Virus record (IMG/VR): IMGVR_UViG_3300025407_000799
Coordinates: 33,799 to 97,798 of that record
Source: a virus
Reading direction: 5' to 3' (one strand)
Length of the DNA: 64,000 bases
Made by a program: the position numbers and the translations under genes. Each line of letters starts with the position of its first letter. Position 1 is the first letter of the stretch. The notes under the pieces are model-generated. The model was not told where the DNA came from. It searched no databases and saw nothing but the letters and a program-made list of their open reading frames with translations. Below, in pieces: positions 8,002 to 64,000 of this stretch.

Positions 8002-9370
8002 CACACTCAACTAATTTAACTCCCGCATCGGAATTACTTTCTAATGCCATAGCAAATACATCTGGGTCAGGTTGAGCTACAGCTTTACCCCATCCAGAAC
8101 CGTAAGGTTTAACTCTAGAGCCTTTGGTAATTGCACCGTAAATCTTAACAGGAACACGACCTTTTAACGCAACATAAGTTCCGCCTTCGAGATCGTCATT
8201 CATCTTAATACCAGGATTGCCACTAACTACTCCGATTGCCTTATCGTCTTTTCCGCAAGAAGTAATTTCTTTTTCTCCGCCTACTGTTACTACAGTACCA
8301 ACTTCATATTCATTATCAGCAAGATATTTTTCTGCTAAGTCAGCACTTTGAATACTAGTATTTGAAGCATGAATAGCACGGAATCTAGCACTAGTAGATC
8401 CAATGTCTGTAAGATCGGCAGCACCTGGATAAACTATATTGCCTAACAGTTGTAGAGTAATAATTTTTGCAGCACCAGATGTAGTTCTAAATACAATAGG
8501 AATACCATCAATGTTACTTGTGATAACAGGAGTTGTTTGTGGTTGACCAGTACCAAATGTATACTGTGGATTTGTAATAGATAAACTAGTGCCTAAATTA
8601 ATTCCAGAATCTGAGAAAGTTACAAGATTTGAAAATGTACTAGGAATATCACCGCGTACATAATTGCTAGAACTTATTTCGCCTAATGCATCAGAATTTG
8701 TTGCTGTTCCCCAGAATTTATAACCAGTACTACTCCATACACCGTTAGTTTGTGTTGTAGAATTTAATGTAATACCTTGTTTAACATCTGTAAAACCAGA
8801 AGTTACACTAGTGATAGTGTTTAATGTAAAGTTTGCATTGCTAACTGTGAAAATTACGTTAGATCCATCGATGACAGATTCAATTACATTATGAGAAGTA
8901 TTTGAACCTTGCTCCTGTAAACTCTTAATAGAAAACTGTGTTGTTCCACTGTTGGTACTAGTAGTGAATGGTCCAATCGGTGTAAAAGAATTTACAGGAT
9001 CTCCGTTATAAACATTCAATTGTTTATTAGTAGTATCAAACCAAAAATCACCAATACTCAATCCACTAGGTGGTTGATTAAATGGTGTAGATTCTGCACT
9101 ACCTGCTGTACGGAATCTGCTACCATCATAAAATCTTAATTTATTTTTAGTAGTATCAAACCAAATTTGACCAGCTAATGGGTTAGTTGGTTGAGTTCCA
9201 TTTGCAAAATTTTCTAGCAAATAGATAAAATTTTCATTTTGTGCTTGGCCGTAACCTGCGTAGTTCTTACCGATTAAAGTAATATCAAGTGAATTATCAA
9301 TGGTGCCCGGAGCTACAGTTAGCCCGTTTCCGATTGGTTTTCCATTGTAATGATTTATTGTGTATGACAT
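7991..9370 (-). CDS. tail fibre/spike protein with a putative C-terminal autocleaving intramolecular chaperone domain
   Basis: Shared fibre N-terminus (LIGKNY.GYG..QNENF..LLENFAN...P..P..GQIWFD); C-terminal SADLAEKY...GTVV..GGEKEIT...VALKGRVPVK. Confidence 0.75.
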   Translation of the reverse strand: MSYTINHYNGKPIGNGLTVAPGTIDNSLDITLIGKNYAGYGQAQNENFIYLLENFANGTQPTNPLAGQIWFDTTKNKLRFYDGSRFRTAGSAESTPFNQPPSGLSIGDFWFDTTNKQLNVYNGDPVNSFTPIGPFTTSTNSGTTQFSIKSLQEQGSNTSHNVIESVIDGSNVIFTVSNANFTLNTITSVTSGFTDVKQGITLNSTTQTNGVWSSTGYKFWGTATNSDALGEISSSNYVRGDIPSTFSNLVTFSDSGINLGTSLSITNPQYTFGTGQPQTTPVITSNIDGIPIVFRTTSGAAKIITLQLLGNIVYPGAADLTDIGSTSARFRAIHASNTSIQSADLAEKYLADNEYEVGTVVTVGGEKEITSCGKDDKAIGVVSGNPGIKMNDDLEGGTYVALKGRVPVKIYGAITKGSRVKPYGSGWGKAVAQPDPDVFAMALESNSDAGVKLVECVIL

Positions 9371-11055: not shown

Positions 11056-14000
11056 TGTTTGTTCTGCTTCCAATTCCAATCCAGCCAGCTGTAATACTAG
11101 TTCCGTGATACCAGTGATCTCCAGATATAGTTAGATAAATGGTAAAAAATCCATAATAATAACTATTTCTATCGTAAGAAGAAGGAGTTACTGATACACT
11201 CCATTGTGCTGGAGATAATCCGTAATAGCTAATACGTGCATCATATATATTTGATAAGCTAGCCATGACATTTAAATCATAATTGCCTTTCCAGCGAAGA
11301 TTATTTGAATCATTACTTAAACCAAGATAGCTACCAAGGTCTACAGTAAATGTAACCGTACCAGTAGTACCGTATTCGCTCAATGTTGCATTAGTTATAG
11401 TAGTACCCCACCCTGATCCAAATCCGCTAGTTGTACTTGAACTTGAACTAGAATATGCTGTATACAAATCTATAGATCCAACAATAGTTTGTACTATATT
11501 TTGTAATTGTGCCTGCGGGCTAGCAATTTGACGAGGTATCGAAGGAGTATTTGATAAATCATTATAATCTCCAGTAGCAGCAACTCTAGCAAGAGTATTA
11601 CCAAAATTTACATCAGTAAGAATCTTTGCCCATGGACTCCAAGTAGTACCTGTATCTCTGCGACTACGTATAAAGTTGTCTGAATGAGCACCAGTTGAAC
11701 CACTCCAGCCAACTAATAGTTCTCCGCCACCACCACCGCCTAAGGTAATTAAATTACCGTATGTAGTCGGATAGCCTGGATTATTATAAACTCCACGTAG
11801 TGTTAATTCGTTACGAGGTTCGTAGGTTGAATTATCTTCTGGCCCAATGACTCCCGAAGTATTGAGAACATTGGCTGAACCAGCATTACCAGATACGTTA
11901 CCTGTAACATTACCTGTAACATCACCAATTACAGCTCCGCGATGTGTTCCGTAACTATCACCTTGTAATGTGCCACTAAATGTTGTAGCTGTTAATGTAC
12001 CATTTTGTACATTAAATGACAATCCTGTATTGTAAATTGATTCATTTTGTCCTGGAAATGCAGTGCCAACTTCACTTGCACCTAATAGATAGTAAGTGCC
12101 AACGCCGGCTGTTTGATTTAAAAACAAGTGTGCTGCATTTACAGAATTAGAAGCTGTATCTGCATTGCCAAATAAATTACCAGTTACATTGCCTGTAACA
12201 TTGCCAGTATGCAAACCAGTAGTATTACCTGTTACGTTACCTGTAACATTTCCAGTTAAATTGCCTGTAACATTACCAACTACGTTTCCTTGGAAATGAT
12301 CTGTAGCTGTATGCACAGCGCCTGTAACATTACCAGCAACATTGCCAGTTACATTACCAGTTACATTTCCTGTTACATTACCTACAATATTTGCAGAAGT
12401 ATAACCTATTTGATTCGTAGAAGAATTAAAAACTTGTGTATTGTTAGAACCGTACAGACTACCAGTTACATTTCCTGTAACATTGCCAGTATGCAAACCA
12501 GTAGTATTACCAGTTACATTACCAGCAACATTGCCAGTTACATTACCAGTTACATTACCAACTACATTTCCTTGGAAATGATCAGTAGCTGTATGTACAG
12601 CACCAGTTACATTACCAGCAACATTGCCAGTTACATTACCAGTTACATTACCAACTACATTTCCTTGGAAATGATCAGTAGCAATATGAACGCTACCTGT
12701 AATATTACCAGCAACATTGCCAGTTACACTACCAGTTAACGGTCCAGTAAATGATCCAAAAATTGGAGCTCCATTAAATCCAAAAGTTCCTGCATTATAA
12801 TTAAACCACAATATGTTGTTTGATGAATAAAGATCTCCATTTAAAGATCCAAAAGTTGGACCGTAATGAATTCCAGTAGTTTCTCCGCTAATATTAATGT
12901 TCCAAGTGACTGTATTATTATCGTTAAAAACAAAGTTTGTAGGTTTATCTGGGATATTTGCCCAGTGTACTAACAAAGCTAAATCAGCTGTTACAGCTGA
13001 GGTAGCTGAGTTAGCATGATCTGCATTAGTAGCCGTAGTCGCATTACCGTAAAAGTTAGGAGCGGTTACGGCATTAGCTGAAATATTCGCACTTGAAATA
13101 TTGTTAACATTAATGTTTCCAGATCCATCTCTAACAACAATAGTATTGATTGTTGGTAATCCTGGAGCTCCAACACTTGCTTGTCTATAATATCCACTTA
13201 CATTTAATAAATTTGATTGAGCTGCTGTACCGGTAAATGTGTTTGCATATACTGTTCCAAATTGTAATGAATTGCTTCCTAAATTTGAACTACTCAATCC
13301 TGTTGGTAAAATATTTCCGCCAATAATTTGTATAGCCCCGGCATTATTTTGTAAGGTTAGTGTATTACTATCGGGAGCATAAACTGTAGGACCATATTGA
13401 CTATTTGATAAAGTCAAAACTGGTAATGTTGTACCAATAACAATACCTTCATCTGGGAATTTAGTCAGTGTAGGAAATACTGTATCTACTAAAGGTGCAT
13501 AAAAACTTGGAAGATTATTTCCAAGTTTATTAGCATTTGTAATAGTACCGTGATATTCATAAGAATTGTTTATTGTTACACCTGAATAGATTATAGGAAA
13601 TCCAGGTATTGCAGGACTAGGAGTAAAATCAGCATCTGCGTTTACAATGAATAAAGTTGTACCGTTAACTACAGCTCGTTGTACAGCATGAGCATGGCTT
13701 GGTATAGCATTATCTGTTATTGCAACACTTTGCATTTGTGTTGCCGCGAATCCAGTAACACTTTGTGGGCCAACCATTGTATAGTTAGATCCATTATAAA
13801 CATTTAACTGATTGTTAGTGGTATCATACCACATATCACCCAGTGTTGCACTTACTGGTTGTGTACTACTAACATTGTTAATTGCTATGGTTTTCCATAA
13901 CTTGTTTGTTTCGTCAAAATAAACATTTAATTTTAAATTTGTAGGAGTAGAGTCAAACCACACTTGCCCTAAAATAGGTCTTGGAGGAGGATTTTGATAA

Positions 14001-14158
14001 GCAAAATGTTCAAGTAACCATACTAAGTCATCATTCAATGCCTGACCGTAGCCAGAATGATTCTTACCAACTAGAGTAATATCTAGTGAGTTATCGACTG
14101 TCCCGTCAACAACCGTAGCAAGCGGTTGTTTATTATATCGGGTTATTGAATATGCCAT
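11039..14158 (-). CDS. long tail fibre protein with (GNVT)n shaft and C-terminal knob/receptor-binding region
   Basis: Shared fibre N-terminus, long GNVT/GNVA tetrapeptide run, knob-like IRSRRD..TWSPW.KI, and a VA.TGDYNDLSN.P repeat. Confidence 0.8.
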   Translation of the reverse strand: MAYSITRYNKQPLATVVDGTVDNSLDITLVGKNHSGYGQALNDDLVWLLEHFAYQNPPPRPILGQVWFDSTPTNLKLNVYFDETNKLWKTIAINNVSSTQPVSATLGDMWYDTTNNQLNVYNGSNYTMVGPQSVTGFAATQMQSVAITDNAIPSHAHAVQRAVVNGTTLFIVNADADFTPSPAIPGFPIIYSGVTINNSYEYHGTITNANKLGNNLPSFYAPLVDTVFPTLTKFPDEGIVIGTTLPVLTLSNSQYGPTVYAPDSNTLTLQNNAGAIQIIGGNILPTGLSSSNLGSNSLQFGTVYANTFTGTAAQSNLLNVSGYYRQASVGAPGLPTINTIVVRDGSGNINVNNISSANISANAVTAPNFYGNATTATNADHANSATSAVTADLALLVHWANIPDKPTNFVFNDNNTVTWNINISGETTGIHYGPTFGSLNGDLYSSNNILWFNYNAGTFGFNGAPIFGSFTGPLTGSVTGNVAGNITGSVHIATDHFQGNVVGNVTGNVTGNVAGNVTGAVHTATDHFQGNVVGNVTGNVTGNVAGNVTGNTTGLHTGNVTGNVTGSLYGSNNTQVFNSSTNQIGYTSANIVGNVTGNVTGNVTGNVAGNVTGAVHTATDHFQGNVVGNVTGNLTGNVTGNVTGNTTGLHTGNVTGNVTGNLFGNADTASNSVNAAHLFLNQTAGVGTYYLLGASEVGTAFPGQNESIYNTGLSFNVQNGTLTATTFSGTLQGDSYGTHRGAVIGDVTGNVTGNVSGNAGSANVLNTSGVIGPEDNSTYEPRNELTLRGVYNNPGYPTTYGNLITLGGGGGGELLVGWSGSTGAHSDNFIRSRRDTGTTWSPWAKILTDVNFGNTLARVAATGDYNDLSNTPSIPRQIASPQAQLQNIVQTIVGSIDLYTAYSSSSSSTTSGFGSGWGTTITNATLSEYGTTGTVTFTVDLGSYLGLSNDSNNLRWKGNYDLNVMASLSNIYDARISYYGLSPAQWSVSVTPSSYDRNSYYYGFFTIYLTISGDHWYHGTSITAGWIGIGSRTNNVYNP
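11880..12740 (-). repeat. 12-nt tandem repeat array encoding (G-N-V-T/A)n with higher-order duplications
   Basis: Repeated gttacattacca/gtaacattgcca units; H(I/T)ATDHFQGNVVGNVTG x3; NTTGLHTGNVTGNVTG x2. Confidence 0.9.
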
Positions 14159-14194
14159 CTTTATCGCTCCGTATATCTTTTATTTGTTTTCATC

Positions 14195-15346
14195 TTACCA
14201 ACTAGTACTACTTAATGGTGATCTCTTCCATAAATTTTCAGCAATACAAACATAAATCCAATTTGAATCCCATACTATTTGTCCTGGATGGCCTGTACTA
14301 GTCGATGTTGGAGGAACCGTAGTGTCACTAAGTCCGCCGTATGTAACTGTATTTCTTATTCTAAATGTACCATTAACGTCTAAAGTTGCTGTTGGTAAGT
14401 TTGTATAAATTCCAGTAAACTGTTGTTGAGCGTCGATAAAAAATGCAGACTGATTAGAAGAACTTGTGTTTCTTAAATTTATATCAAAATTTTGATTGTC
14501 TGTTGTTGATTTAATTTGGAATGTTACTGGTCCTGAATACTCAGGTTGAACGCTAATTTCTATATTGCCGCTTGGGCCTAGTACTAGTTGCTTGTTAGCT
14601 TTAATATACAAACCGCCTAAGCCACTAGAATCAGTATCAATAATACTATTTCCTGTTGTTTGTACAAAAGAAGAGGATGTATAATTATTAACTCCGTCAG
14701 TTAAAGACTCTGCCGTATTTGCAGGAACATCAAACATAATACCTGGATACGAACTTACATTAAATCCTGGAACTAGACTGGTTGGATATGTATTTTCTAA
14801 ACCTTGATTAGATTGTGGGACAAATGAATCTTTAGAAAATACACCAAGTAATTGAGAATTAACTCGTAGTTCTACTACTACATGATTCAAACTATTAACA
14901 TCTAAAACATCTAAAACATTAAAACCAGAAGCTTTTTGATTAGCTGTATAAATGGGTCCTGCAAGTATTGGTCCTGAATTCGAACCATCGCTAAAGAATA
15001 ATTGCTGATTTGTACTATCAACCCAAAAGTCACCTGCTGACAAACTACTAGGAGGTGTTGTGCTTACTGTTGTACCTCCAGCAACATTAAACGATTGTGA
15101 ATCGCTGTCATATACTTTTAATTTTTTTGTAGATGTGTCAAACCATAACTGACCCATTAATGGATTATTAGGTTGTGTAGTATTTGCAAAATTTTCTAAT
15201 AGATGAACAAAATTATCATTTAAAGATAAACCGTATGCAGTGGCATTTTTACCTATTAAGGTTAAATCTGTTGTTAGCTGATCAACGGTTCCATCTAGAA
15301 CCGATGTTAATTGTGTTCCATCAGTTTTAATTATTGGGTATGCCAT
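14195..15346 (-). CDS. tail fibre-related structural protein
   Basis: Shared fibre N-terminus; C-terminal P.TSTSTG.PGQI.WD..WIYVC.A.N.WKR motif. Confidence 0.75.
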   Translation of the reverse strand: MAYPIIKTDGTQLTSVLDGTVDQLTTDLTLIGKNATAYGLSLNDNFVHLLENFANTTQPNNPLMGQLWFDTSTKKLKVYDSDSQSFNVAGGTTVSTTPPSSLSAGDFWVDSTNQQLFFSDGSNSGPILAGPIYTANQKASGFNVLDVLDVNSLNHVVVELRVNSQLLGVFSKDSFVPQSNQGLENTYPTSLVPGFNVSSYPGIMFDVPANTAESLTDGVNNYTSSSFVQTTGNSIIDTDSSGLGGLYIKANKQLVLGPSGNIEISVQPEYSGPVTFQIKSTTDNQNFDINLRNTSSSNQSAFFIDAQQQFTGIYTNLPTATLDVNGTFRIRNTVTYGGLSDTTVPPTSTSTGHPGQIVWDSNWIYVCIAENLWKRSPLSSTSW

Positions 15347-17508
15347 TATATGTTAGCTCCGGTATAGATGATGTAGTTAATAGCAAGATATGGATTCATC
15401 ACATTCACTGCTTGTCCTGTAACTGTTGCTCCAGTAGAAGAATCAACAACCGGTCCAGCAGATGGTAAACCTCGTGTTAGGCCGGTTGTACTGGCCAAAC
15501 CATGTCCAATTACTGTTGGATTGCCATCCGGTGTACTTGTAGTATCACCAACTGCATAGTATTGAATACCTTTAGGACTATTTAAGTTATGAGTATGCTG
15601 TGGAAGCTGACTTGTCGATAGTGCAACACTTGAACGTCCTGGGCCAGTTAAACTGTCTGATCCTGCTCCAAGGTTATCTGCGGTAGTTTCACTAACTCTG
15701 TTTGCCGCACTGCCTACTGTATAGACGCTAGATGATCCACCGCTTGCTGGAACTTTGATATTATTATTCATATTATCAAGTCCAAGTGGGAAACGTCCTC
15801 TTAAATCAGGTAACTTAAATGTACCAGCACCTAATAATCCTGCACTAGATCCGTTACTGTAGGTATATCCAATTAATTTATACAAATCTGTATAGATACT
15901 TTGCAATACTTCACTACCATCACATAATAAGAAACCGGCCGGAACAGCTGAAGCAGGGCCTGCAAATGGTAATATACAACCAATTGGAACCAATGGAACA
16001 TGTTTAAAAAATGTTTGTTTGGTCATTTGAGCAAGTGACTGTGTTCCTTGCTTATATACTAATAATGTGTCTGGAAAAGATGAATTAAGAGTACTAGAAT
16101 CACTTGATACTTGTTGATTTGTAATAAAATTTGTACTGATTACAGTATTAAAAGTAGCTGTACCGTCTAGACTTGCTCCATTAAATGAAACAGAATTACT
16201 TGTAACATCGCCTGTTAATTTAAAAATAGTAGGATTAGCTAGTTGTGTCGCACTACCGTCAACGGCACCAGTTACATATCCTGCAAATGTTCCACTAAAA
16301 TTTCCTACAAAATTTTGAGCGTAGATATTTCTAAATTTTAATGTACTACTACCAATATCATATACTTGTGTGGCCGTTGGAAGTAGTGCTGATCCAGAAG
16401 TTGGAGTACCATTTGAATTCCAATTAATATATAATTGACCGCCAATATAAGTATCGTCGTTTAAATTACTTACACCTGTTACTGTCGACGATCCTGTAAT
16501 TGTTTGATTGCCACCAATGTCAATATTTCCACTAACTTTTACATTACCTATTACATCTAACGCGGCAGATGCAGAAGGACTTGGATTGTTTATACCCACT
16601 TGTCCGTTAGCATTTACTTGAATAACTGTATTTGTAGTATTTGTAGAATCAGTTAAAACAAAAGATATGTTATTATTAGGGTTACTAGAAACTAACTGTG
16701 TCGATACACCAGTTGTTTTGATTTGAAAACTCAAATCACTACCAAGTTTTATACCATCGTTAACTTGAATATTTAAAGGACTGTTACTGGTACTAGCAAC
16801 ATCTCCTCTTAAAAAATTTGTTGAAGCAATTACTTTATTATTAACAAGCAATCCGTTTGCCGATTGTGCTGTTCCCCATAGACCTGCACTAGCACCTAAT
16901 GCAGGATCTGTACCGTCGCTGAATAAATTTACACCTTTCTTTATAGATGCAAAACCATTTAAACTTGTTTTAGGAATAAAACTATCTTGGCTTACTATTG
17001 CAACTCTACTACCAGATGCATAAAATGTAACAACAAAATGAGGTTGATTACCAGTGTCAATAATTTCTTCTGCAACCGGACCTGTTGAAGATCCTGAACT
17101 AAATTGCGGACCTACCAAAATCCAACTTGATCCAGAATATACATATAACTGACTAGTAGCGGTGTTAACCCAAATATCTCCGCTAACTGGACTTAAAATA
17201 TCTGAACTACTACTGGCTTTTTTAATTGCACCTGCTGGATTCCATGTCCCGCCATCATATACTTTTAAAAGACTATTGGCATTATCATACCATAGTTGTC
17301 CTTGTACAGGATTTGAAGGAGGTGTTGGATTGGCAAAATTTTCTAATATATGTAAAAAATCTGTTGCAATTAGTTGACCATAACCGCTATTATAGTTTTT
17401 ACCTACAAATGTTATACTGGTACTGGTAGAATCAATTTTTTGATCTTCTACAGTAATAGGAGGCTTATTTGGATTGTTTAACTCAGTATATTGAATTTTA
17501 TAAGACAT
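15346..17508 (-). CDS. tail fibre protein with phage tail-collar domain (gp12-like)
   Basis: Shared N-terminus; tail collar motif PIG.ILPFAG...P.GFLLCDG...FKLPDLRGRFPLG; LPQHTH; NPYLAINYIIY. Confidence 0.85.
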   Translation of the reverse strand: MSYKIQYTELNNPNKPPITVEDQKIDSTSTSITFVGKNYNSGYGQLIATDFLHILENFANPTPPSNPVQGQLWYDNANSLLKVYDGGTWNPAGAIKKASSSSDILSPVSGDIWVNTATSQLYVYSGSSWILVGPQFSSGSSTGPVAEEIIDTGNQPHFVVTFYASGSRVAIVSQDSFIPKTSLNGFASIKKGVNLFSDGTDPALGASAGLWGTAQSANGLLVNNKVIASTNFLRGDVASTSNSPLNIQVNDGIKLGSDLSFQIKTTGVSTQLVSSNPNNNISFVLTDSTNTTNTVIQVNANGQVGINNPSPSASAALDVIGNVKVSGNIDIGGNQTITGSSTVTGVSNLNDDTYIGGQLYINWNSNGTPTSGSALLPTATQVYDIGSSTLKFRNIYAQNFVGNFSGTFAGYVTGAVDGSATQLANPTIFKLTGDVTSNSVSFNGASLDGTATFNTVISTNFITNQQVSSDSSTLNSSFPDTLLVYKQGTQSLAQMTKQTFFKHVPLVPIGCILPFAGPASAVPAGFLLCDGSEVLQSIYTDLYKLIGYTYSNGSSAGLLGAGTFKLPDLRGRFPLGLDNMNNNIKVPASGGSSSVYTVGSAANRVSETTADNLGAGSDSLTGPGRSSVALSTSQLPQHTHNLNSPKGIQYYAVGDTTSTPDGNPTVIGHGLASTTGLTRGLPSAGPVVDSSTGATVTGQAVNVMNPYLAINYIIYTGANI

Positions 17509-17511
17509 CGA

Positions 17512-18120
17512 TTATACTCCTACTAGGCCAGTTAGACTTTGAATACGTACTGTATAATCAATTTGAATCAAACGATTTAAACTTTTTAGTACCGGATGGA
17601 ATACAACGTGAGTTAATAACAAACTTTGTCCAGTACTACTATAACTTTGTAAACCTAATTCATCGAATACATAAGTGTTAACACCGTCGCTGTTTGTATC
17701 ATAAGCAGCTTGACCGCTAGGCTCTCCGTAATCTAATAAACAAGTACAAAAAATATCAGTATAATTTTGACCAGTTACGTGGCGTACTTCAGTAAAATTA
17801 CGTGTTGGATCCACATTGGTACTTGAACTAGGATCAATTACCTTGCTATAAGTTTGATTATAAAGACTAGCATTAGTTCCACTGCTATTTGGAGTTAGAT
17901 ATGTAATAATTCCTGTAGGGTCAATACTAGTTCCGCCGTTACCAAATGCAATATTATATACAAAGCCGTTTCCGCTGTTAGTCATAGCTTCAACAATAGC
18001 TATACTCATATTTTCATAATGAATAGCATTACGTTTGTTGATGTAAATTTCGTTAGAAATTGGGTCATAAATTTTAATATGACCTTCTATATGAATCCCT
18101 GTTGCGTCTTTAGTCTGCAT
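17512..18120 (-). CDS. virion structural protein (baseplate/fibre attachment candidate)
   Basis: 202 aa, beta-rich (FDELGL...THV.F.PV.KS.NR.IQIDYTVRI); first gene after a late promoter. Confidence 0.6.
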   Translation of the reverse strand: MQTKDATGIHIEGHIKIYDPISNEIYINKRNAIHYENMSIAIVEAMTNSGNGFVYNIAFGNGGTSIDPTGIITYLTPNSSGTNASLYNQTYSKVIDPSSSTNVDPTRNFTEVRHVTGQNYTDIFCTCLLDYGEPSGQAAYDTNSDGVNTYVFDELGLQSYSSTGQSLLLTHVVFHPVLKSLNRLIQIDYTVRIQSLTGLVGV

Positions 18121-46461: not shown

Positions 46462-47223
46462 ATGTTTATCTATAAAATTATCGTTAATAATAATGTTTAT
46501 ATAGGACTTGATACTAAACCGTCCTATAAGTTATCACGATGGAAAAAGCATTGCGATGAGGCAACTACAAGATGTAAAACAAAATTACATAAGGCTATGA
46601 ATATGTATGGCATAAAGAATTGTGTAGTTGAAATATTAAAAGATAACTTTAAGTCTATTGGAGAACTTGCGTTATCGGAAATTGATTACATTAAGCAATA
46701 CGATTCTTATAAAAACGGACTTAACTCTACTCCAGGTGGAGACGGTTTAGGAAAATACGATTTAACTTTATTATCGCTTGCAGATATAAACAAAATCAAA
46801 TCTGCATTAGGTGAGCATTTTAGTAATTATAATAAAAATATCAAATGGGCAGGAACTACTGAAGTTGATAGAAAATTATTAACTAAACATTTACATACTG
46901 ACGAAATTTATCAAAAGAAATCGGATACCCTTAAGAAATTTTACAAAGCAAATCCAGATATTGCCAAAACAAAAGCAGTAGGGATTAGAAAATGGCAGTT
47001 GGAAAATCCAGAAGAAATGAAGAAACGCAATCAGATTAATTCGATTAAAGGTGCCGCGGCTGTTTCGAAGAAACTAAAGGTTGAACTGGAAGACGGTAAT
47101 GTGTTATACTATTCAAGTAAAAGTGAATTCCATAGATTAACAAATCAATGGGCAAACACCATTATTAAAAAAACACAAGAAGGTGTTTTCTACAATGGTT
47201 ATAAAATATGGGAAGAAAAATGA
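46462..47223 (+). mobile_element. free-standing Seg-like GIY-YIG homing endonuclease gene
   Basis: FIYKI....VYIG, R...H, catalytic E, NGLN.T.GG; basic C-terminal DNA-binding region; inserted between the gp55-like and gp47-like genes. Confidence 0.8.
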
Positions 47224-48475: not shown

Positions 48476-50247
48476 AAATAAAAGAATTAACCGTTAAAAA
48501 CTTTATGAGCGTGGGTAATCAAACCCAAGCTGTAAACTTCGGAAAGGAAAACTTAACACTTGTGCTAGGTGAAAACTTAGACCAAGGCGGTGATGATAAC
48601 GGCAGTCGTAATGGTACAGGTAAAACTACCATTGTAAACGCTCTTAGTTTTGCTTTATTTGGTAACGCACTTACTAACATTAAAAAAGACAATCTTATTA
48701 ACAAAATTAACAACAAAAATATGTTAGTGACTTTGACGTTTGAAAAAGACGGAACAGATTATCGAATTGAACGTGGACGTAAACCCAGTGTTATGAAGTT
48801 CTTTGTTAACGACCAAGAACAAGAAGGCGAAGAATCCGATGATAGCCAAGGCGATCAACGTGAAACACAAAAAGACATCGATGAACTTTTTGGCATGAGC
48901 CACGACATGTTCAAGCATATTGTTGCGTTAAACACTTATACAGAACCGTTTTTATCAATGCGGGCCAATGACCAACGTGTTATTATTGAACAGTTGTTGG
49001 GTATTACTATTCTTAGCGAAAAAGCAGAAACGCTTAAAGAGCTAGTTAAGCAAACTAAGGATGCTATTACACAAGAGTCTGCAAATATCGAAGCTGCCAA
49101 GAAATCTAATGATAAAATACAAATTAGTATTGATAGTTTGTTAACTAGACAAACAGCTTGGAATACGCAACATGCTAACGAACTTGAAAAGATAGGACGT
49201 AGCATAGTAGAGTTGGAAAGTGTAGATATTGAAGCTGAGCTTGCGAAGCACAGCGAGCTCAAAGAGTTCGATGAAAAAACAGCGAAGCTGCGAAGTTTAA
49301 ATAAGGAACGTGCTACGTTAGATAGCGCGATAGCGCAAGCGGAGCGAAGCGTTACGAAGTATGAACGCGAACTCGCCTTATTGGCAAGTAAGACCTGTCA
49401 CGCTTGTGAACAACAGCTACATGATCATAAGCATGAAGAAATGACAGCTCTAGCTCAGAAGCATCTGGACGAGGCGGTCATTTACTTTACTAAAGTATCA
49501 AAGGACCTGGAAAAAATTACAGCAGAAATTACTTCTATTGGTGAGGTTCCAGCCAAGCCTATTACCTACTACGACAGTTATGAGCAGGCGCTTAAACATC
49601 AGAACAACTTGAAGACTCTTGAAAATCAACTGATACAAAAAAGCAATGACACAGATCCTTATCAGGAACAGATTGACGAACTCACTGACACTGCCATGCA
49701 GGAAATCACCTGGGACAATGTTAATACTTTAACCAGCTTAAAGGATCATCAAGAGTTCTTATTAAAATTGTTGACTAGCAAGGATTCCTTTATCCGTAAA
49801 AAGATTATAGATCAAAACCTAGCATATTTGAACAATCGTCTAACTTATTATCTTGATAAGATGGGATTGCCTCATACTGTGTTATTCCAAAATGACTTAA
49901 CCGTTGAGATCACCCAGCTAGGGCAAGATTTAGATTTTGATAATCTAAGTCGAGGTGAGCGGAATAGACTTATCCTTGGTTTGTCATGGTCGTTTAGAGA
50001 TGTTTGGGAAAGTTTATATCAACCTATCAACTTGTTGTTTGTTGACGAGCTTATTGACAACGGGCTTGATGCTGCAGGTGTTGAAGGCGCATTGGCTGTA
50101 CTAAAGAAAATGGGTCGTGAACGCAAGAAGAATATTTTCTTAATTAGTCACAAGGACGAACTAATCGGCCGTGTTAACAATGTGTTAAAAGTTATCAAAG
50201 AAAACGGCTATACTAGCTATGCTAACGATTTAGAAATTAATGAGTAA
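48472..50247 (+). CDS. recombination ATPase, T4 gp46/Rad50/SbcC-like
   Basis: KNFMS.GN, Walker A NGTGKTT, zinc-hook CHAC in the coiled coil, signature LSRGE, Walker B LFVDE, ISH. Confidence 0.93.
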   Translation: MKIKELTVKNFMSVGNQTQAVNFGKENLTLVLGENLDQGGDDNGSRNGTGKTTIVNALSFALFGNALTNIKKDNLINKINNKNMLVTLTFEKDGTDYRIERGRKPSVMKFFVNDQEQEGEESDDSQGDQRETQKDIDELFGMSHDMFKHIVALNTYTEPFLSMRANDQRVIIEQLLGITILSEKAETLKELVKQTKDAITQESANIEAAKKSNDKIQISIDSLLTRQTAWNTQHANELEKIGRSIVELESVDIEAELAKHSELKEFDEKTAKLRSLNKERATLDSAIAQAERSVTKYERELALLASKTCHACEQQLHDHKHEEMTALAQKHLDEAVIYFTKVSKDLEKITAEITSIGEVPAKPITYYDSYEQALKHQNNLKTLENQLIQKSNDTDPYQEQIDELTDTAMQEITWDNVNTLTSLKDHQEFLLKLLTSKDSFIRKKIIDQNLAYLNNRLTYYLDKMGLPHTVLFQNDLTVEITQLGQDLDFDNLSRGERNRLILGLSWSFRDVWESLYQPINLLFVDELIDNGLDAAGVEGALAVLKKMGRERKKNIFLISHKDELIGRVNNVLKVIKENGYTSYANDLEINE

Positions 50248-50518
50248 GCACGTTGATCCAAGTCCCTATCAAAACGAAGAGTCGCATGAAAAACTCATGG
50301 CGGCTTTTCGCGAGTATTTTAAAGAAAATCAAGAATGGATCAACAAAGGCACACGTAGTTCAGGCGAACGTATGCGCTACTGGCTAGCGCAGATTAGAAT
50401 TATAGCCAAAGAACGCCGTACGCATGTACAACAGTATCGCGTATGGTTAGATAGGGCAAAAGCAGAACGTAAGGCAAATCAAAAGGCACAGGGTACGGAG
50501 ACAGATGACACTAATTAG
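50240..50518 (+). CDS. small basic protein resembling the histone H1-like Hc1 family
   Basis: W.NKGTRSSGERMR..L..IR..AKERR resembles the Hc1-type KGNKAAG.R.R motif (recognised by eye). Confidence 0.5.
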   Translation: MSKHVDPSPYQNEESHEKLMAAFREYFKENQEWINKGTRSSGERMRYWLAQIRIIAKERRTHVQQYRVWLDRAKAERKANQKAQGTETDDTN

Positions 50519-50521
50519 TGT

Positions 50522-50947
50522 ATGTCTTGGTACTATAACAATGAAATTGTAGAAGAACTTCCCGAAGATTGTGTTGGGTTTGTATATCTTATAACAAACA
50601 CAATTACAGGGCGTATGTACATAGGCAAAAAACTAGCAAAATTTTCTAAAACTACTTATCGAACAGTAAAATTAAAAAACGGCACTAAGAAAAAAAAGAA
50701 AATCCGCAGTAAAATTAACAGTGATTGGCAGACCTATTATGGGTCGTCGGATGAATTACTCAAGGATATTGCGCAGTTAGGTCAAGAAAACTTTCGCAGG
50801 GAAATACTGTTTTACTGTAAATCCAAAGCAGAAACGTCATATATAGAGGCTCGTGAACAGTTCAGCCGTCGTGTGCTGGAATCAAAAGACTATTATAATG
50901 GTCAAATTTCCGTGCGTGTACACGGTTCACACATACTCAAATCATAA
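50522..50947 (+). CDS. small single-domain GIY-YIG nuclease
   Basis: GFVYLITN...GRMYIGKK, YYGSS, catalytic E (YIEAREQF), YYN; Lys-rich insert. Confidence 0.8.
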   Translation: MSWYYNNEIVEELPEDCVGFVYLITNTITGRMYIGKKLAKFSKTTYRTVKLKNGTKKKKKIRSKINSDWQTYYGSSDELLKDIAQLGQENFRREILFYCKSKAETSYIEAREQFSRRVLESKDYYNGQISVRVHGSHILKS

Positions 50948-50949
50948 TA

Positions 50950-51424
50950 CTTTAGGCTACTAAATCACCAAATAAGCCAGCACAGGCGTTGACATTGTGC
51001 CCTGAATCCGTTCTGTTGTGTGACGGCAAGGTAGTTCTGCTTGGTGACAGAGTTATAAATCACTATCCTTTACAGGACGACGATTGGATATGCCATAACC
51101 AGTTTGATTTATAAGGGGAAGTAACAAGGCTAAAAGAGGGGTAGTAGCCCCACGGTTTAACAAGTGTTAGCGTATTTGTTAAGCCCGCCGTCATATAAAG
51201 ACTCTGCTCGTGGTACCGGATGACCGCCACTGTAATGCAGTAACGCTAAGGTGATATTGTGCAACTCGGATAATGTCAAAACAACTTTGCCCGCTAGGGC
51301 AAAGTGTGACTGAACAATCTGGATAATATCTTAACGCTTCGCGTTTAATAAATCATTAACTACTTCTTGATAGACTAATAAAAGTTCGAGCTGAAGCGAA
51401 GAACAGAAGAACGCTAGTTCTTCT
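50950..51424 (+). ncRNA. putative large structured non-coding RNA of unknown family (alternatively an origin/primer RNA)
   Basis: Largest ORF-free gap in the window; at least 8 nested helices, several with G-U pairs that only form on the + strand. Confidence 0.6.
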
Positions 51425-51660
51425 TATAACAATGGCATACGTGTTTCTTTAGTTACTTCGATATTCTCTTTGATAATATTATAGATCAATTCACGATCTG
51501 AGAATGTGTAGATATGAAGTAGATCTTCTACACTAACACCACCACGCATATACCAGGATATTCTAAAAAGTTCTTCTTTAAAGCCCTGGATCTGATTGTC
51601 TAGCCTAACTAGATGTGCTTGAATTTCGTCTGGTGGAAGACTAATTAGGCTTGTACGAAA
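51424..51660 (-). CDS. gp51/gpT-like ORF lacking its own start, probably made as a -1 frameshift extension of the upstream gene
   Basis: Open frame FRTSLISLPPDEIQAHLVRLDNQIQGFKEELFRISWYMRGGVSVEDLLHIYTFSDRELIYNIIKENIEVTKETRMPLL*; begins at slippery AAATTTTTTC. Confidence 0.7.
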   Translation of the reverse strand, partial: FRTSLISLPPDEIQAHLVRLDNQIQGFKEELFRISWYMRGGVSVEDLLHIYTFSDRELIYNIIKENIEVTKETRMPLL

Positions 51661-52472
51661 AAATTTGACTGATCAAGGTCTACAGCAAGATTGGCTTCTT
51701 GGCCACAGTTGTCGCATTTAACTGGGAATCGAGGCATGGCCCAAGCATCATTATTTTTTTGATTTCTAGCTTTGATAGCATCAAACACACTCTTGTCGCA
51801 GTTGTCCAACCATTCCATGATAAAGGGAGTTTCGGTAACTACTTGCTGACCAGTATCAACACTTTCAATAGTAGCACGATAAATTTCAGTTTGGATATCG
51901 GCTAATTCTTTGAATAAACTGTTAACTACTTCTTGTCTTTCTGGAGTGTTGTCCATGACTTCTGCTTGAGCAAGACGTTGTTGTAGTCTAAAGTTTTTAA
52001 GATTAAACTCAGTGCTTTGCTTATATGTTAATGGACGTAGATTAATGGTCAGATCGTCTGTGACAATTTTACCGTCATACTGACAGGCCATGTAAAATTC
52101 CACAACTTTGTTTAGATCGATGTCATAGTCATTTTCAGATCCGCAATTATTGCACTTGTGTCCCACGGTCATGGAGTTGCCATAGGTAGCAATACGAATA
52201 GCTGCCAATAAAATAACTAGATCCAGTATACACAATTCCCAAGGATCTTTGATAGCCGGGCAACAGCTGGTTAAAACTTGTGCTGTGCTTTCGCCAGACA
52301 ACAATGCATCTGGAGTTTTAACAATGATTTCATCCATGCCCGTCATACCATATACTGGTGTATTGGTAACATCGCCTTGGATAGTACCGGGCTTGTTAAA
52401 GATACCTCCGCTGGGGAACTTGATATAGATCTTAGGTTGTCTAAAGTACTTTTGTAACGGATTAACGGCCAT
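51645..52472 (-). CDS. baseplate hub assembly protein/tail assembly chaperone, T4 gp26-like
   Basis: NPL..YFRQP.IY...PS.G, MT..DEI, D...IL.AIRIATYG, two CxxC pairs, ends NFF. Confidence 0.8.
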   Translation of the reverse strand: MAVNPLQKYFRQPKIYIKFPSGGIFNKPGTIQGDVTNTPVYGMTGMDEIIVKTPDALLSGESTAQVLTSCCPAIKDPWELCILDLVILLAAIRIATYGNSMTVGHKCNNCGSENDYDIDLNKVVEFYMACQYDGKIVTDDLTINLRPLTYKQSTEFNLKNFRLQQRLAQAEVMDNTPERQEVVNSLFKELADIQTEIYRATIESVDTGQQVVTETPFIMEWLDNCDKSVFDAIKARNQKNNDAWAMPRFPVKCDNCGQEANLAVDLDQSNFFVQA

Positions 52473-52498
52473 TGTAATAACTCCAAAATATTGTCATG

Positions 52499-52556
52499 TA
52501 TTTATATACGCACTTTTTGGGTTATTTTCGTATTGGCTAGGTTTATTTGGTAAATA
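52499..52556. promoter_or_regulatory. divergent late promoters
   Basis: TATAAATA on the minus strand (52506-52499) and TAAATA on the plus strand (52551-52556). Confidence 0.65.
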
Positions 52557-52562
52557 CAAATT

Positions 52563-53588
52563 ATGAAAGTTTATGAAGTAATTTCAAAAGATCCTCAACT
52601 AGACGAATTCAGTTTGAATCCAATGAACTGGTTCGGTGCCGGTAATGCAGGAGCCGCAGCTAAACAAGCCAGTTATGATGCTGGGGCTGTTAAAAATCTA
52701 GCGGCAATTGCTAAAAAGCAATTTCCAAATCTAAGTCCAGCTGCTGGTAAAGCACTGGCTGACATTACATCTGGTACAGCTAAAGCTAGCAAGGCCGCAT
52801 CGCAAGAAGCATTTGCTATGAAAGTAGGTAATATTAGCTATGTGTTGCGTGTACTAGGTGCGTTTGCTATCAGTTACAAGTTGTACAGCAATTTTTCTAT
52901 ACTTGAAGATAAGTATAATGCAGGTGAATTAAACGCTGAACAGTATAAAGAAGCACACGAAGCCTACTGGGGACTGTGGGTTATTCAATTCATGGGTCCA
53001 TGGTTAGCAACAACTTTAGGTACAGCTAAACTAGTAGCATTTTTAATTCGTTTAATACTGGCGGTATTAACATTAGGTGTAACTGTGTTTACTGGCGGAG
53101 GTGCAGCCGCTGCAACAATTACAGGTCTAGTAGTTGAACAAGCTGTGTTTACGGCTTTACAAGCGTTCTTAATGTCTAAAACATTTGAACAATGGATGTC
53201 GGATCACTTTTTCAAAACACTAGTAACTATTGGTTCAGTACCAGATGCTAGTTGGAATATACTACGTCAGTATTTGAGTGAAATTCCAGTAATAAATGCG
53301 TTCTTCAAAGATAAAGGTGTTGATTTTTACACAGCTGCCAAGAAAGAAAAACAAAGAATCAATCCTGCGGCAGCTGCTGACGATGAAAAAGCAACACAAG
53401 CAAGAAACCTAGCACCTTTAGATTCTGATAAAAATGCTATTATGATTAACGGAATTCGTGTTACTGATAAAGACGGCAACTTAGACGATTATGCCATGAT
53501 GCGTCCTTTTGTTAAGAACTATTTAGAACTGCATCCTGAAGATCCTAATGTACAAAAAGTACTAGCACTACAATCCAAATCTAAATAA
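52563..53588 (+). CDS. putative membrane-associated virion protein upstream of the tape measure
   Basis: 341 aa with several long hydrophobic segments (e.g. LVAFLIRLILAVLTLGVTVFTGGGAAAA). Confidence 0.7.
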   Translation: MKVYEVISKDPQLDEFSLNPMNWFGAGNAGAAAKQASYDAGAVKNLAAIAKKQFPNLSPAAGKALADITSGTAKASKAASQEAFAMKVGNISYVLRVLGAFAISYKLYSNFSILEDKYNAGELNAEQYKEAHEAYWGLWVIQFMGPWLATTLGTAKLVAFLIRLILAVLTLGVTVFTGGGAAAATITGLVVEQAVFTALQAFLMSKTFEQWMSDHFFKTLVTIGSVPDASWNILRQYLSEIPVINAFFKDKGVDFYTAAKKEKQRINPAAAADDEKATQARNLAPLDSDKNAIMINGIRVTDKDGNLDDYAMMRPFVKNYLELHPEDPNVQKVLALQSKSK

Positions 53589-63465: not shown

Positions 63466-63556
63466 ATACATAGTACGATCCACATAGGGTGGATTTTATG
63501 CGGAAATCCAACCGCGTACGGCCTAGAACGCCGTGTTTTCATAAGGAGAAAATAAA

Positions 63557-64000
63557 ATGGGACGTCCTCTAAATAAGAAATATTTTGGTAATCGTAACGT
63601 CGGATCTGATGGAACATTCGCATCAGGTGCTACTTTGTCTAATACCAGCGCAGAAATTGGTGGTAAGAGCATCTCCAGTTTCAACATTACAAACCGTGGT
63701 TCATGGTTATCAAACAACGTAAGTCCAAATGTGCCTGTACTAGGTTTGGCAGTACCAGCTCCACAAATTGCTGATGGTATCCAAGCAACTTGGTCAGTGA
63801 CTTATTGTATTGACACAGTAACAACTAATGCTGGAAAAACAGGATTGGTAACTGGCGATACTTATACAAGCTCAATATTCCCAGGATCAATAATCACTGT
63901 TGGCGACCTAAGCGGAGCAAATGCTTTGTTTACAGTTACTAATGCCGGTAGCACTGGTAACATTCCACTTGATACAACAACAGTTAGTATTACTCAATTA
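63557..64000 (+). CDS. late structural protein, truncated by the window end (MGRPLNKKYFGNRN...)
   Basis: AAGGAG SD, ATG at 63557, open reading frame running off the window; ATAAATA at 63462-68. Confidence 0.8.
   Translation, partial: MGRPLNKKYFGNRNVGSDGTFASGATLSNTSAEIGGKSISSFNITNRGSWLSNNVSPNVPVLGLAVPAPQIADGIQATWSVTYCIDTVTTNAGKTGLVTGDTYTSSIFPGSIITVGDLSGANALFTVTNAGSTGNIPLDTTTVSITQL

What the first reader, a model, noticed from the sequence alone, without database searches (positions are those of the whole stretch)
50522..51424. ~470-nt highly structured non-coding element directly behind a minimal GIY-YIG nuclease: candidate nuclease-RNA system or primer RNA/origin
Seen: this is the only large ORF-free gap in the window, and it is GC-richer than other intergenic DNA. 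An 11-bp long-range helix TGTGTGACGGC/GCCGTCATATA (51017-27/51187-97, 2 G-U) closes a multi-branch domain. Inside are TTCTG/CAGAG (51035-52), a perfect 10-bp TTATAAATCA/TGATTTATAA (51053-62/51105-14) enclosing TCCT-ttac-AGGA, GGGGT/GCCCC (51138-51), and a 13-bp GGTTTAACAAGTG/TATTTGTTAAGCC (51154-66/51173-85, 3 G-U). Further 3' lie GTGG/CCAC with inner CGG/CCG (51210-30), ACTTTGCCC-gcta-GGGCAAAGT (51284-305) and AGAAGAAC-gcta-GTTCTTCT (51405-24). The G-U pairs favour a + strand RNA, co-oriented with the nuclease. I could not match it to tRNA, tmRNA, RNase P or group I/II intron cores. The 141-aa nuclease has a catalytic domain and a Lys-rich insert but no separate DNA-recognition domain. Inference: (a) an RNP in which the RNA scaffolds or guides the nuclease, by analogy to HEARO/omegaRNA-type pairs, or (b) a structured replication primer/R-loop origin, consistent with the strand-convergence point, the mini-hairpins and the phage RNase H.
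Basis: partly seen in the sequence, partly recalled or inferred. Interest (0 to 1): 0.85.

Follow-up and report, generated by a model that had tools for sequence, protein, structure and literature searches.

The report
Full-length twin-box Polynucleobacter-1 phage RNA
The gene-free 480 bases behind a small nuclease gene of this uncultured giant T4-like lake phage encode a real, multiply knotted non-coding RNA; its first third is an orphan motif catalogued in 2010, the rest carries one 7-letter word twice, and its job is still unknown.

Summary
Window 50948-51644 is the only large ORF-free stretch, and about 50975-51424 (+) is a conserved structured RNA. The remaining roughly 310 nt are in no Rfam family but are equally conserved in about 140 distinct phage contigs. 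Covariation supports 14 helices and three pseudoknots.

The nuclease link is real but not obligatory. It holds in 90-98% of phage loci, and was noted in 2010 as "downstream of PSSM2_218-like genes". One phage has a PD-(D/E)XK nuclease instead. In 14 bacterial genomic-island copies the RNA lies between a DUF6641 gene and a 188-aa tyrosine recombinase, with no GIY-YIG gene.

The oddest feature is two direct 7-nt boxes (GGATAAT, 51268-74 and 51321-27). They are identical in 138 of 138 phage RNAs despite at least 46 word changes. I found no complementary partner and no co-varying nuclease residue.

Earlier agents of this scan reported the same family on other DNA. Function remains unknown. An origin, a guide-RNA system and a cis-regulatory element are all poorly supported.

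The parts
50522..50947 (+). 141-aa single-domain GIY-YIG nuclease gene (SegE-like, homologue of P-SSM2 PSSM2_218)
   Evidence: Pfam PF19835, E 1.4e-33, residues 3-129; PHROG 447. Y22, Y33, R93, E109 and N126 are invariant in 129 homologues. P-SSM2 homologue is locus tag PSSM2_218.
50975..51114 (+). 5' domain, equal to Rfam RF01718 Polynucleobacter-1 RNA (P1, weak P2, P3, outer helix, two inner hairpins)
   Evidence: cmscan 78.9 bits, cut-off 37, model positions 1-141 of 141.
50975..51424 (+). Full-length RNA gene (about 450 nt); 5' end set by the Rfam model match, 3' end by the terminal hairpin; neither end was mapped by reads
   Evidence: Conserved block of 383-509 nt in 63 loci. 139 distinct homologues aligned. 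Structure test on A1: 87.2% paired against 72% shuffled and 37-43% slid.
50976..51000 (+). P1 (50980-84/50996-51000), plus a 3-bp pseudoknot between the 5' tail and the P1 loop (50976-78/50985-87)
   Evidence: P1: mean Watson-Crick 0.97, 5 of 5 pairs with two-sided changes. Pseudoknot: 0.92.
51053..51114 (+). Outer helix 51053-62/51105-14, enclosing hairpins 51067-68/51075-76 and 51082-87/51099-104
   Evidence: Inner 6 bp at 0.96-1.00 with 3-4 pair types each.
51138..51151 (+). GGGG/CCCC hairpin
   Evidence: Covaries; the alignment slips here.
51154..51185 (+). 13-bp hairpin whose loop TTAGCG (51167-72) forms pseudoknot PK1
   Evidence: 12 of 13 pairs with two-sided changes.
51244..51249 (+). 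3' strand of PK1 (CGCTAA), pairing with loop 51167-72
   Evidence: Mean Watson-Crick 0.96, 6 of 6 pairs with two-sided changes (helix 13).
51190..51240 (+). Knotted core: PK2 51190-94/51220-24, crossing nested helices 51204-07/51237-40 and 51210-13/51227-30; includes the near-invariant GGTACCGGATGACCGCC
   Evidence: Top covarying pairs 51204/51240, 51205/51239 and 51192/51222.
51264..51277 (+). Box 1: ACTC + word GGATAAT (51268-74) + GTC
51285..51304 (+). Hairpin CTTTGCCC/GGGCAAAG between the two boxes
   Evidence: helix 19.
51317..51330 (+). Box 2: ATCT + the same word GGATAAT (51321-27) + ATC, 53 nt after box 1
   Evidence: Identical to box 1 in 138 of 138 phage homologues. All fixed flank differences are transitions.
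51333..51345 (+). Small hairpin AACGC/GCGTT
   Evidence: Inner 3 bp 95% paired with compensatory changes (helix 20).
51384..51424 (+). 3' hairpin with a GA-rich internal loop (51384-404), then the terminal 8-bp hairpin 51405-12/51417-24, the probable 3' end or terminator
   Evidence: helices 21-23. The terminal hairpin is also present in bacterial copies.
50240..50518 (+). 92-aa basic ORF upstream of the nuclease (context only)
   Evidence: No Pfam or PHROG family. A homologue was detected in 55 of 139 loci and in L141.

Best explanation
Shown. Window about 50975-51424 (+) is the full-length gene of a roughly 450-nt, multiply pseudoknotted non-coding RNA. Rfam's Polynucleobacter-1 model (RF01718) covers only its first 140 nt. 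The family is carried by mobile elements of lake microbes: uncultured giant T4-like phages, where it follows a one-domain GIY-YIG gene, and genomic islands of small-genome Burkholderiales, where it lies between a DUF6641 gene and a catalytic-domain-only tyrosine recombinase.

Inferred. In this phage the RNA is made as the tail of the + strand gp47-gp46-ORF92-nuclease transcript; no promoter-like site lies in front of it. It ends at the terminal hairpin at 51405-24. It then acts as a gene product in its own right and not as the nuclease's cofactor.

Inferred, weakest step. Its working surface includes the two single-stranded boxes (ACUC-W-G.. and AUCU-W-A..). These behave like two equivalent docking sites that must carry the same word. 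All fixed differences between their flanks are transitions, which one complementary strand could tolerate through G-U pairs. In both hosts the RNA sits next to DNA-cutting or DNA-joining enzymes that lack a DNA-binding domain, and at the edge of a slot holding ever-changing cargo genes. I therefore place its function in DNA transactions or competition between related mobile elements, not in host metabolism.
For: Rfam hit. The whole block is conserved. Covariation: 77 of 90 pairs with two-sided changes; score 0.393 against 0.179 shuffled (0 of 500) and 0.07-0.10 slid; top mutual-information pairs define the pseudoknots. G-U-rich pairs fix the + strand. Linkage: 19 of 20, 70 of 78, and 102 of 118 loci found from the RNA side, the rest being too short or chance hits. 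Independence from the nuclease: PDDEXK_15 in L141; extra ORFs between nuclease and RNA in 5 loci; 17 of 151 genomes of one bacterial genus carry RF01718; 14 of 14 analysed bacterial loci have DUF6641, the RNA, a variable ORF and a 188-212-aa recombinase, with no GIY-YIG. Twin boxes: 138 of 138 identical, 10 words, at least 46 changes on the tree against 76-85 for shuffled labels; present with other words in bacteria. Cargo slot: the first ORF after the RNA belongs to 24 different clusters in 57 phage loci and varies among the 14 bacterial loci. No promoter-like site on the + strand in 50200-51800.
Against: No partner for the boxes was found: no third copy or complement within 4 kb either side in 138 loci, none in the 97.8-kb record, and only chance-level sites inside coding regions in a 99%-complete 345-kb relative. 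Four of 14 bacterial copies have non-identical boxes, so identity is not absolute. The link to DNA transactions rests on gene neighbourhood only. Covariation alone cannot exclude a folded single-stranded DNA form.
Confidence: 0.55

Rival explanations
1. Nuclease-RNA ribonucleoprotein. The RNA scaffolds or guides the domain-minimal GIY-YIG nuclease, and the twin boxes act as the specificity segment.
For: Linkage of 90-98% in phages over nuclease identities from 95% down to 53%. The nuclease has no DNA-binding domain, and its catalytic residues are invariant. In bacteria the neighbouring recombinase is likewise catalytic-domain-only.
Against: The RNA exists without the nuclease, and the nuclease exists without the RNA. 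No nuclease column tracks the box letters: maximum 0.15 of 1.04 bits for x, and 0.26-0.29 of 0.72-0.93 bits for y, z and w. There are only 10 words and no matching target.
Confidence: 0.12
2. Landmark model. The RNA has a job unrelated to the neighbouring enzymes, for example host take-over or translation. The GIY-YIG, PD-(D/E)XK and inserted ORFs are selfish or hitch-hiking genes that lodge beside a conserved RNA gene, as T4 segB sits in the tRNA cluster (from general knowledge).
For: Different enzymes occupy the same slot. The flanks are hyper-variable. PHROG relatives of the nuclease are annotated as homing endonucleases.
Against: The nuclease is nearly fixed beside the RNA instead of sporadic. 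It is a single-copy, widely conserved 140-aa family in 605 phage records, unlike typical two-domain homing endonucleases. The recurrence of DNA enzymes in the unrelated bacterial context would be a coincidence.
Confidence: 0.2
3. Replication origin or structured primer RNA.
For: The site is where transcription converges. The twin direct repeats recall donor and acceptor sites for primer or template switching, as with hepadnaviral DR1/DR2 (from general knowledge).
Against: There is no GC-skew extremum at 51 kb; the sign change is at about 45.5 kb, where gene orientation flips. The same element is present in bacterial chromosomal islands. No polymerase or primase is linked to it.
Confidence: 0.04
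4. Cis-acting 3' UTR or bidirectional terminator region of the convergent operons.
For: The terminal hairpin resembles a terminator, and the hairpin at 51284-305 scores as a terminator-like site on the - strand.
Against: About 450 nt with three covarying pseudoknots and near-invariant single-stranded blocks is far beyond what a terminator needs. In bacteria it follows a divergent gene, so it is not a 3' UTR there.
Confidence: 0.03

Closest known systems
Polynucleobacter-1 RNA motif (Rfam RF01718; Weinberg et al. 2010, Genome Biol 11:R31, PMC2864571)
   Same: Window 50975-51114 matches the whole 141-position model at 78.9 bits. The published note that the motif lies downstream of GOS11034 / PSSM2_218-like genes describes this same nuclease family. 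The Polynucleobacter and freshwater distribution is also the same.
   Different: The published motif is only the 5' third. The 310-nt remainder, with two further pseudoknots, the twin boxes and the terminal hairpins, is in no Rfam family. The 2010 paper found no copy in any purified phage and did not recognise the neighbouring gene as a GIY-YIG nuclease.
Large ornate orphan RNAs of phages and mobile elements (GOLLD, ROOL, HEARO; same 2010 survey and later work, from general knowledge)
   Same: Size, several pseudoknots, carriage by phages and islands, and unknown or only recently found function.
   Different: No Rfam match to any of them at E up to 5. None is known to carry an identity-coupled pair of direct boxes.
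OMEGA RNAs (IscB/TnpB) and IS110 bridge RNA
   Same: A structured RNA encoded next to a small DNA enzyme of a mobile element. The bridge RNA has two specificity loops.
   Different: The enzymes here are GIY-YIG, PD-(D/E)XK or tyrosine recombinase, not RuvC/HNH or DEDD. There is no hypervariable guide, only 10 words in 138 RNAs. The two boxes are identical to each other instead of matching two different DNAs, and no target was found.
T4 segB beside the tRNA and small stable RNA genes (from general knowledge)
   Same: A free-standing GIY-YIG gene lying next to structured RNA genes in a T4-type phage.
   Different: SegB has a DNA-binding domain and is sporadic. Here the nuclease is one domain and nearly fixed next to the RNA.
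Identity-coupled short repeats used for strand or template transfer or crossover (hepadnavirus DR1/DR2, coronavirus TRS, overlap regions of tyrosine-recombinase sites; from general knowledge)
   Same: What matters is that the two copies are the same, not what the sequence is. This is exactly the behaviour of the twin boxes.
   Different: No reverse transcriptase or RNA-dependent polymerase is linked. No inverted-repeat recombinase arms flank the boxes. No precise box-to-box deletion allele was seen; the one deletion variant, L088, has other end points.

Membership tests
Rfam RF01718 Polynucleobacter-1 RNA | Covariance-model score at or above the gathering cut-off over the full model | tested here: met
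   78.9 bits against 37, model positions 1-141 of 141, E 4.5e-15.
Rfam RF01718 Polynucleobacter-1 RNA | Model helices P1, P3, the outer helix and the inner hairpins kept by compensatory changes | tested here: met
   Mean Watson-Crick 0.84-0.99 with two-sided changes; helices 1-9.
Rfam RF01718 Polynucleobacter-1 RNA | Second model stem (P2) | tested here: inconclusive
   cmscan marks non-canonical pairs in the window. A 5-bp alternative, CCGTT/GACGG, forms in the window's register but is not aligned across the family (0.45).
Rfam RF01718 Polynucleobacter-1 RNA | Published context: downstream of GOS11034 / PSSM2_218-like genes | tested here: met
   The upstream nuclease hits P-SSM2 at the CDS with locus tag PSSM2_218 (36% identity, E 1e-9). 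Supplement text.
OMEGA / guide-RNA nuclease systems (HEARO-IscB, TnpB) | RNA adjacent to an IscB/TnpB-type RuvC nuclease, with a hypervariable guide at one end | tested here: not met
   The nuclease is GIY-YIG. No HEARO or other Rfam hit. The only variable segment has 10 states, is duplicated internally, and has no target.
IS110-type bridge RNA | Adjacent DEDD/Tnp recombinase; two loops each matching a different DNA (target and donor) | tested here: not met
   No such recombinase is present. The boxes are identical to each other. No complementary DNA beyond the locus itself.
Free-standing homing endonuclease (Seg/Mob type) | GIY-YIG domain plus a separate DNA-binding domain; sporadic presence among close relatives | tested here: not met
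   One domain fills the 141 aa. The gene is present in 102 of the 104 genuine RNA loci with enough upstream sequence.
Phage replication origin / R-loop primer | Strand-composition switch or initiation at the site | tested here: not met
   No cumulative GC-skew extremum at 51 kb. Initiation itself is not testable with these tools.

The most novel reading that the evidence does not exclude
The twin-box RNA is a programmable specificity module for DNA transactions of mobile elements. Its two identical boxes each pair with a DNA site carrying the same 7-9-nt core. This would bring together, or mark, two partners for a neighbouring enzyme that has no DNA-binding domain of its own (GIY-YIG, PD-(D/E)XK or a catalytic-domain-only tyrosine recombinase). 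The fast-changing word would set which relatives can exchange or exclude the adjacent cargo.
Probability: 0.04. Interest if true: 0.95.

Novelty: new variant of a known kind. Interest (0 to 1): 0.6.

Why it matters
An orphan Rfam motif turns out to be the head of a 450-nt, triple-knotted RNA. It is common in giant freshwater phages and in islands of abundant lake bacteria. Large RNAs with complex folds have usually proved to be ribozymes or cores of RNP machines.

The twin boxes show a kind of covariation not covered by normal RNA structure rules: identity between two direct repeats, kept through at least 46 changes. That points to an interaction not yet described.

The recurrent neighbourhood makes this a testable candidate for a new RNA role in competition or gene exchange between mobile elements. 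That neighbourhood consists of domain-minimal DNA enzymes and a cargo-gene hot spot, in two unrelated kinds of element. If the RNA proves to be only a stable RNA of unknown use, the practical gain is a corrected, full-length family model.

Tried and rejected
1. Boxes pairing with each other antiparallel: rejected. G-to-A changes in both copies break the pairs, and the GC variant does not pair at all (worked out by hand).
2. Boxes as -10 promoter elements: rejected. The words GATGAA and GATGAG lack the T at -7, and there is no sigma-70-like site on the + strand.
3. Boxes as a sense codon plus a UAA/UGA stop, a mini-ORF, or gene-60-like take-off and landing sites. This looked attractive in phages, where the box reads GGA-UAA and an in-frame 17-codon ORF runs from box 1 to box 2. 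It is rejected because the bacterial words (AGCGAAA, ATCAAAA and others) have no stop, the upstream start is not conserved, and the spacer length varies.
4. Block recombination as the cause of the concerted change: rejected. The letters between the boxes do not co-segregate with the word; the next-best mutual information is 0.2 or less on well-filled columns.
5. A third copy or a complement nearby: none found.
6. A wobble-tolerant common partner encoded elsewhere in the phage: none in the 97.8-kb record. In a 99%-complete 345-kb relative and a 230-kb relative the extra sites lie inside unrelated coding regions, at the level of the control.
7. Nuclease residues, or residues of the 92-aa ORF, tracking the word: no convincing signal.
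8. A precise box-to-box deletion allele: not seen. L088 has a different 69-nt deletion.
9. Inverted-repeat recombinase arms around the boxes: none seen by eye.
11. The 17-mer scan of bacterial genomes: 118 of 120 hits were chance matches in GC-rich genomes. Two were real, on short contigs of Bacteroidota MAGs, and are probably binned phage fragments.
12. Literature: no paper on GIY-YIG plus structured RNA, and none on DUF6641.

Full report
**What is there.** The window is part of a 97.8-kb IMG/VR virus record that CheckV rates about 26% complete. It is T4-like: gp47- and gp46-type genes lie upstream on the + strand, and a T4_baseplate gene converges on the - strand. Window 50948-51644 is the longest stretch without an ORF of 80 aa or more (697 nt; the next is 203 nt). 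The element has 42.6% GC against 36.5% for the window. The gene in front, 50522-50947, is a one-domain GIY-YIG protein. Pfam SegE_GIY-YIG covers residues 3-129 of 141 (E 1.4e-33), and the catalytic-type residues Y22, Y33, R93, E109 and N126 are invariant in 129 homologues.

**Known part.** A scan of all Rfam families gives a full-length match of 50975-51114 (+) to RF01718, Polynucleobacter-1 RNA: 78.9 bits against a cut-off of 37. [quoted passage not shown] It adds that none was found in a purified phage and that the 3' half is not always detected (PMC2864571 supplement). The nuclease's homologue in P-SSM2 is exactly the CDS tagged PSSM2_218, mis-annotated as NAD synthetase.

**New part.**
- Eighty IMG/VR loci encode a nuclease 70-95% identical to this one. 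In 19 of 20 tested, RF01718 starts right behind the nuclease gene, within about 30 nt of its stop.
- BLAST shows that the region 3' of the Rfam model (51115-51430) is at least as conserved as the model region: 50-56 loci hit against 42. The whole block is 383-509 nt long in relatives.
- A search from the RNA side with a near-invariant 17-mer of the 3' region found 118 further loci.
- I aligned 139 distinct elements. Mutual information with average-product correction recovers the Rfam helices and adds:
  - a 13-bp hairpin, 51154-66/51173-85;
  - a 6-bp pseudoknot between its loop and 51244-49 (PK1);
  - a knotted core in which 51190-94 pairs with 51220-24 (PK2), across the nested helices 51204-07/51237-40 and 51210-13/51227-30;
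  - a 3-bp pseudoknot of the 5' tail with the P1 loop;
  - hairpins at 51285-304, 51333-45 and 51384-404;
  - a terminal 8-bp hairpin, 51405-24.
- On the independent tool alignment A1, which still contains about 10 non-member rows, 87.2% of cells pair, against 71.9% in shuffles and 37-43% with slid partners. 77 of 90 pairs change on both sides. The covariation score is 0.393 against 0.179, with 0 of 500 shuffles reaching it.
- G-U is the commonest pair at several positions, so the folded strand is +.

**Twin boxes.**
- Two direct repeats 53 nt apart flank the hairpin at 51285-304: ACTC-GGATAAT-GTC (51264-77) and ATCT-GGATAAT-ATC (51317-30).
- The 7-nt word is identical in both boxes in 138 of 138 phage RNAs that have both. 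There are ten different words.
- On a tree built without these columns the word changes at least 46 times; shuffled labels give 76-85.
- The letters between the boxes do not co-segregate with the word, so this is not block exchange.
- Identity extends to two positions after the word and largely to one position before it. The fixed differences between the flanks are all transitions (C/U, U/C, C/U, G/A). A single complementary strand could tolerate these through G-U pairs.
- I found no such strand. There is no extra copy or complement within 4 kb either side in 138 loci. There is none in the 97.8-kb record beyond the boxes' own DNA. In a 99%-complete 345-kb relative and a 230-kb relative the extra sites lie inside unrelated coding regions, at control level.
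- No nuclease residue tracks the word.
- A second identity-type coupling, 51197 with 51301, suggests that AAAG at 51197-200 can compete for, or dock on, the 5' strand of the hairpin at 51285-304.

**Is the nuclease a partner?**
- From the nuclease side, 70 of 78 informative loci have the RNA, and 8 close relatives (77-82% identity) lack it.
- From the RNA side, 102 of 118 loci have the nuclease 245-330 nt before the core. Of the other 16, eight are too short and six are chance hits. One (L115) belongs to the same contig as L038, where an insertion separates the two. One (L141) carries a PDDEXK_15 endonuclease in the same place.
- Five loci have an extra ORF of 257-308 aa between the nuclease and the RNA.
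- More distant family members (Melnitz, cyanophages, ACP17, phiN3) have no RF01718 next to the gene.
- A lead from earlier notes of this scan sent me to bacteria. In one genus of small-genome Burkholderiales, 17 of 151 species genomes carry RF01718.
- In all 14 loci analysed the order is: DUF6641 gene (divergent), the RNA, a variable ORF, then a 188-212-aa tyrosine recombinase that is little more than the catalytic domain. There is no GIY-YIG gene.
- These bacterial copies keep the ACTC and ATCT flanks and carry other words (AGCGAAA, ATCAAAA, AGAGAAA, AACAAAA, GGAGAAA). Four of the 14 have non-identical boxes. This shows that intermediates exist. It also refutes my stop-codon reading of the phage words.
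- The nuclease is therefore a habitual neighbour, not a demonstrated partner.

**Context shared by both hosts.** The DNA just 3' of the RNA is a cargo hot spot. In 57 phage loci the first ORF after the RNA belongs to 24 different clusters before the conserved baseplate genes resume. In bacteria the ORF between the RNA and the recombinase differs from genome to genome. No promoter-like site precedes the RNA in the window. There is no GC-skew extremum at the locus.

**Reading.**
- Secure: a real, + strand, roughly 450-nt, multiply knotted RNA; a member and full-length form of the Polynucleobacter-1 family; carried by mobile elements.
- Likely: a stand-alone RNA product that does not need the GIY-YIG protein.
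- Speculative: a role in DNA transactions or competition between related elements, with the boxes as matched docking sites.
- Poorly supported: guide-RNA nuclease, origin or primer, and plain terminator readings.

Earlier agents of this scan reached the same description ("twin-box Polynucleobacter-1 RNA") on other genomes. I found the boxes independently before reading those notes, and I confirmed the bacterial-island claim myself.

**Limits.** There is no expression evidence. The alignments are sequence-based and slip in variable hairpins. Function is not established.

Noticed in passing
window 63478-63559 (+): Full-length match to Rfam RF02980, freshwater-2 RNA (75.4 bits, cut-off 49.9). This is a second catalogued orphan motif in the same phage.
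   Followed up: no
window 51425-52560 and loci L170-L199: The DNA right after the RNA is a cargo hot spot. In 57 relatives the first downstream ORF belongs to 24 different clusters. The window's 341-aa ORF (52563-53588) sits directly behind the RNA in other phages such as L181.
   Followed up: partly
window 51424-51644 (-): The 41-aa ORF at 51424-51549 is the C-terminal part of a protein that is about 70-94 aa long in 30 relatives (cluster 2). Here the 221 nt between it and the baseplate gene hold no long ORF. Another first-stage note (e1-6050655) proposes a frameshift at this point.
   Followed up: no
window 46462-47223 (+): A 253-aa ORF with a GIY-YIG-like N-terminus (IYKI...VYIG) gets no Pfam hit at E up to 0.01. 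It is probably a second, divergent homing-type endonuclease.
   Followed up: no
L330 (G053:C4:62000-81000), about 11850-17740 (-): In one bacterial genome the RNA module lies directly beside Zorya-like defence genes: an EH_Signature protein and an SNF2-helicase/Mrr-nuclease protein.
   Followed up: no
L354 and L356 compared with L353, L355, L357-L365: The three-gene block next to the small recombinase (clusters c2-c4, where c4 is an AAA ATPase) is inverted in 2 of 14 bacterial loci.
   Followed up: no
genus of G095 (151 genomes): The catalytic-domain-only tyrosine recombinase family is multi-copy. 75 of 151 genomes have it at E up to 1e-25, with up to 6 copies each. Copies at 78% identity or more mostly coincide with RNA-bearing genomes, but four such genomes (G283, G196, G176, G209) gave no RF01718 hit.
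   Followed up: partly
L088 (core at 8517): A natural variant of the RNA lacks about 69 nt, comprising the PK1 3' strand, box 1 and the hairpin between the boxes, but keeps box 2.
   Followed up: partly
window 51197 and 51301: A second identity-type covariation (A/A, T/T, G/G) links the conserved single strand CATATAAAGAC to the 3' strand of the hairpin at 51285-304. It suggests alternative pairing or a base triple.
   Followed up: partly
L324, L325 (G004) and L306: Full-length copies of the RNA lie on contigs of 1.5-2 kb binned into Bacteroidota MAGs. They are probably phage fragments, but could hint at the host.
   Followed up: no
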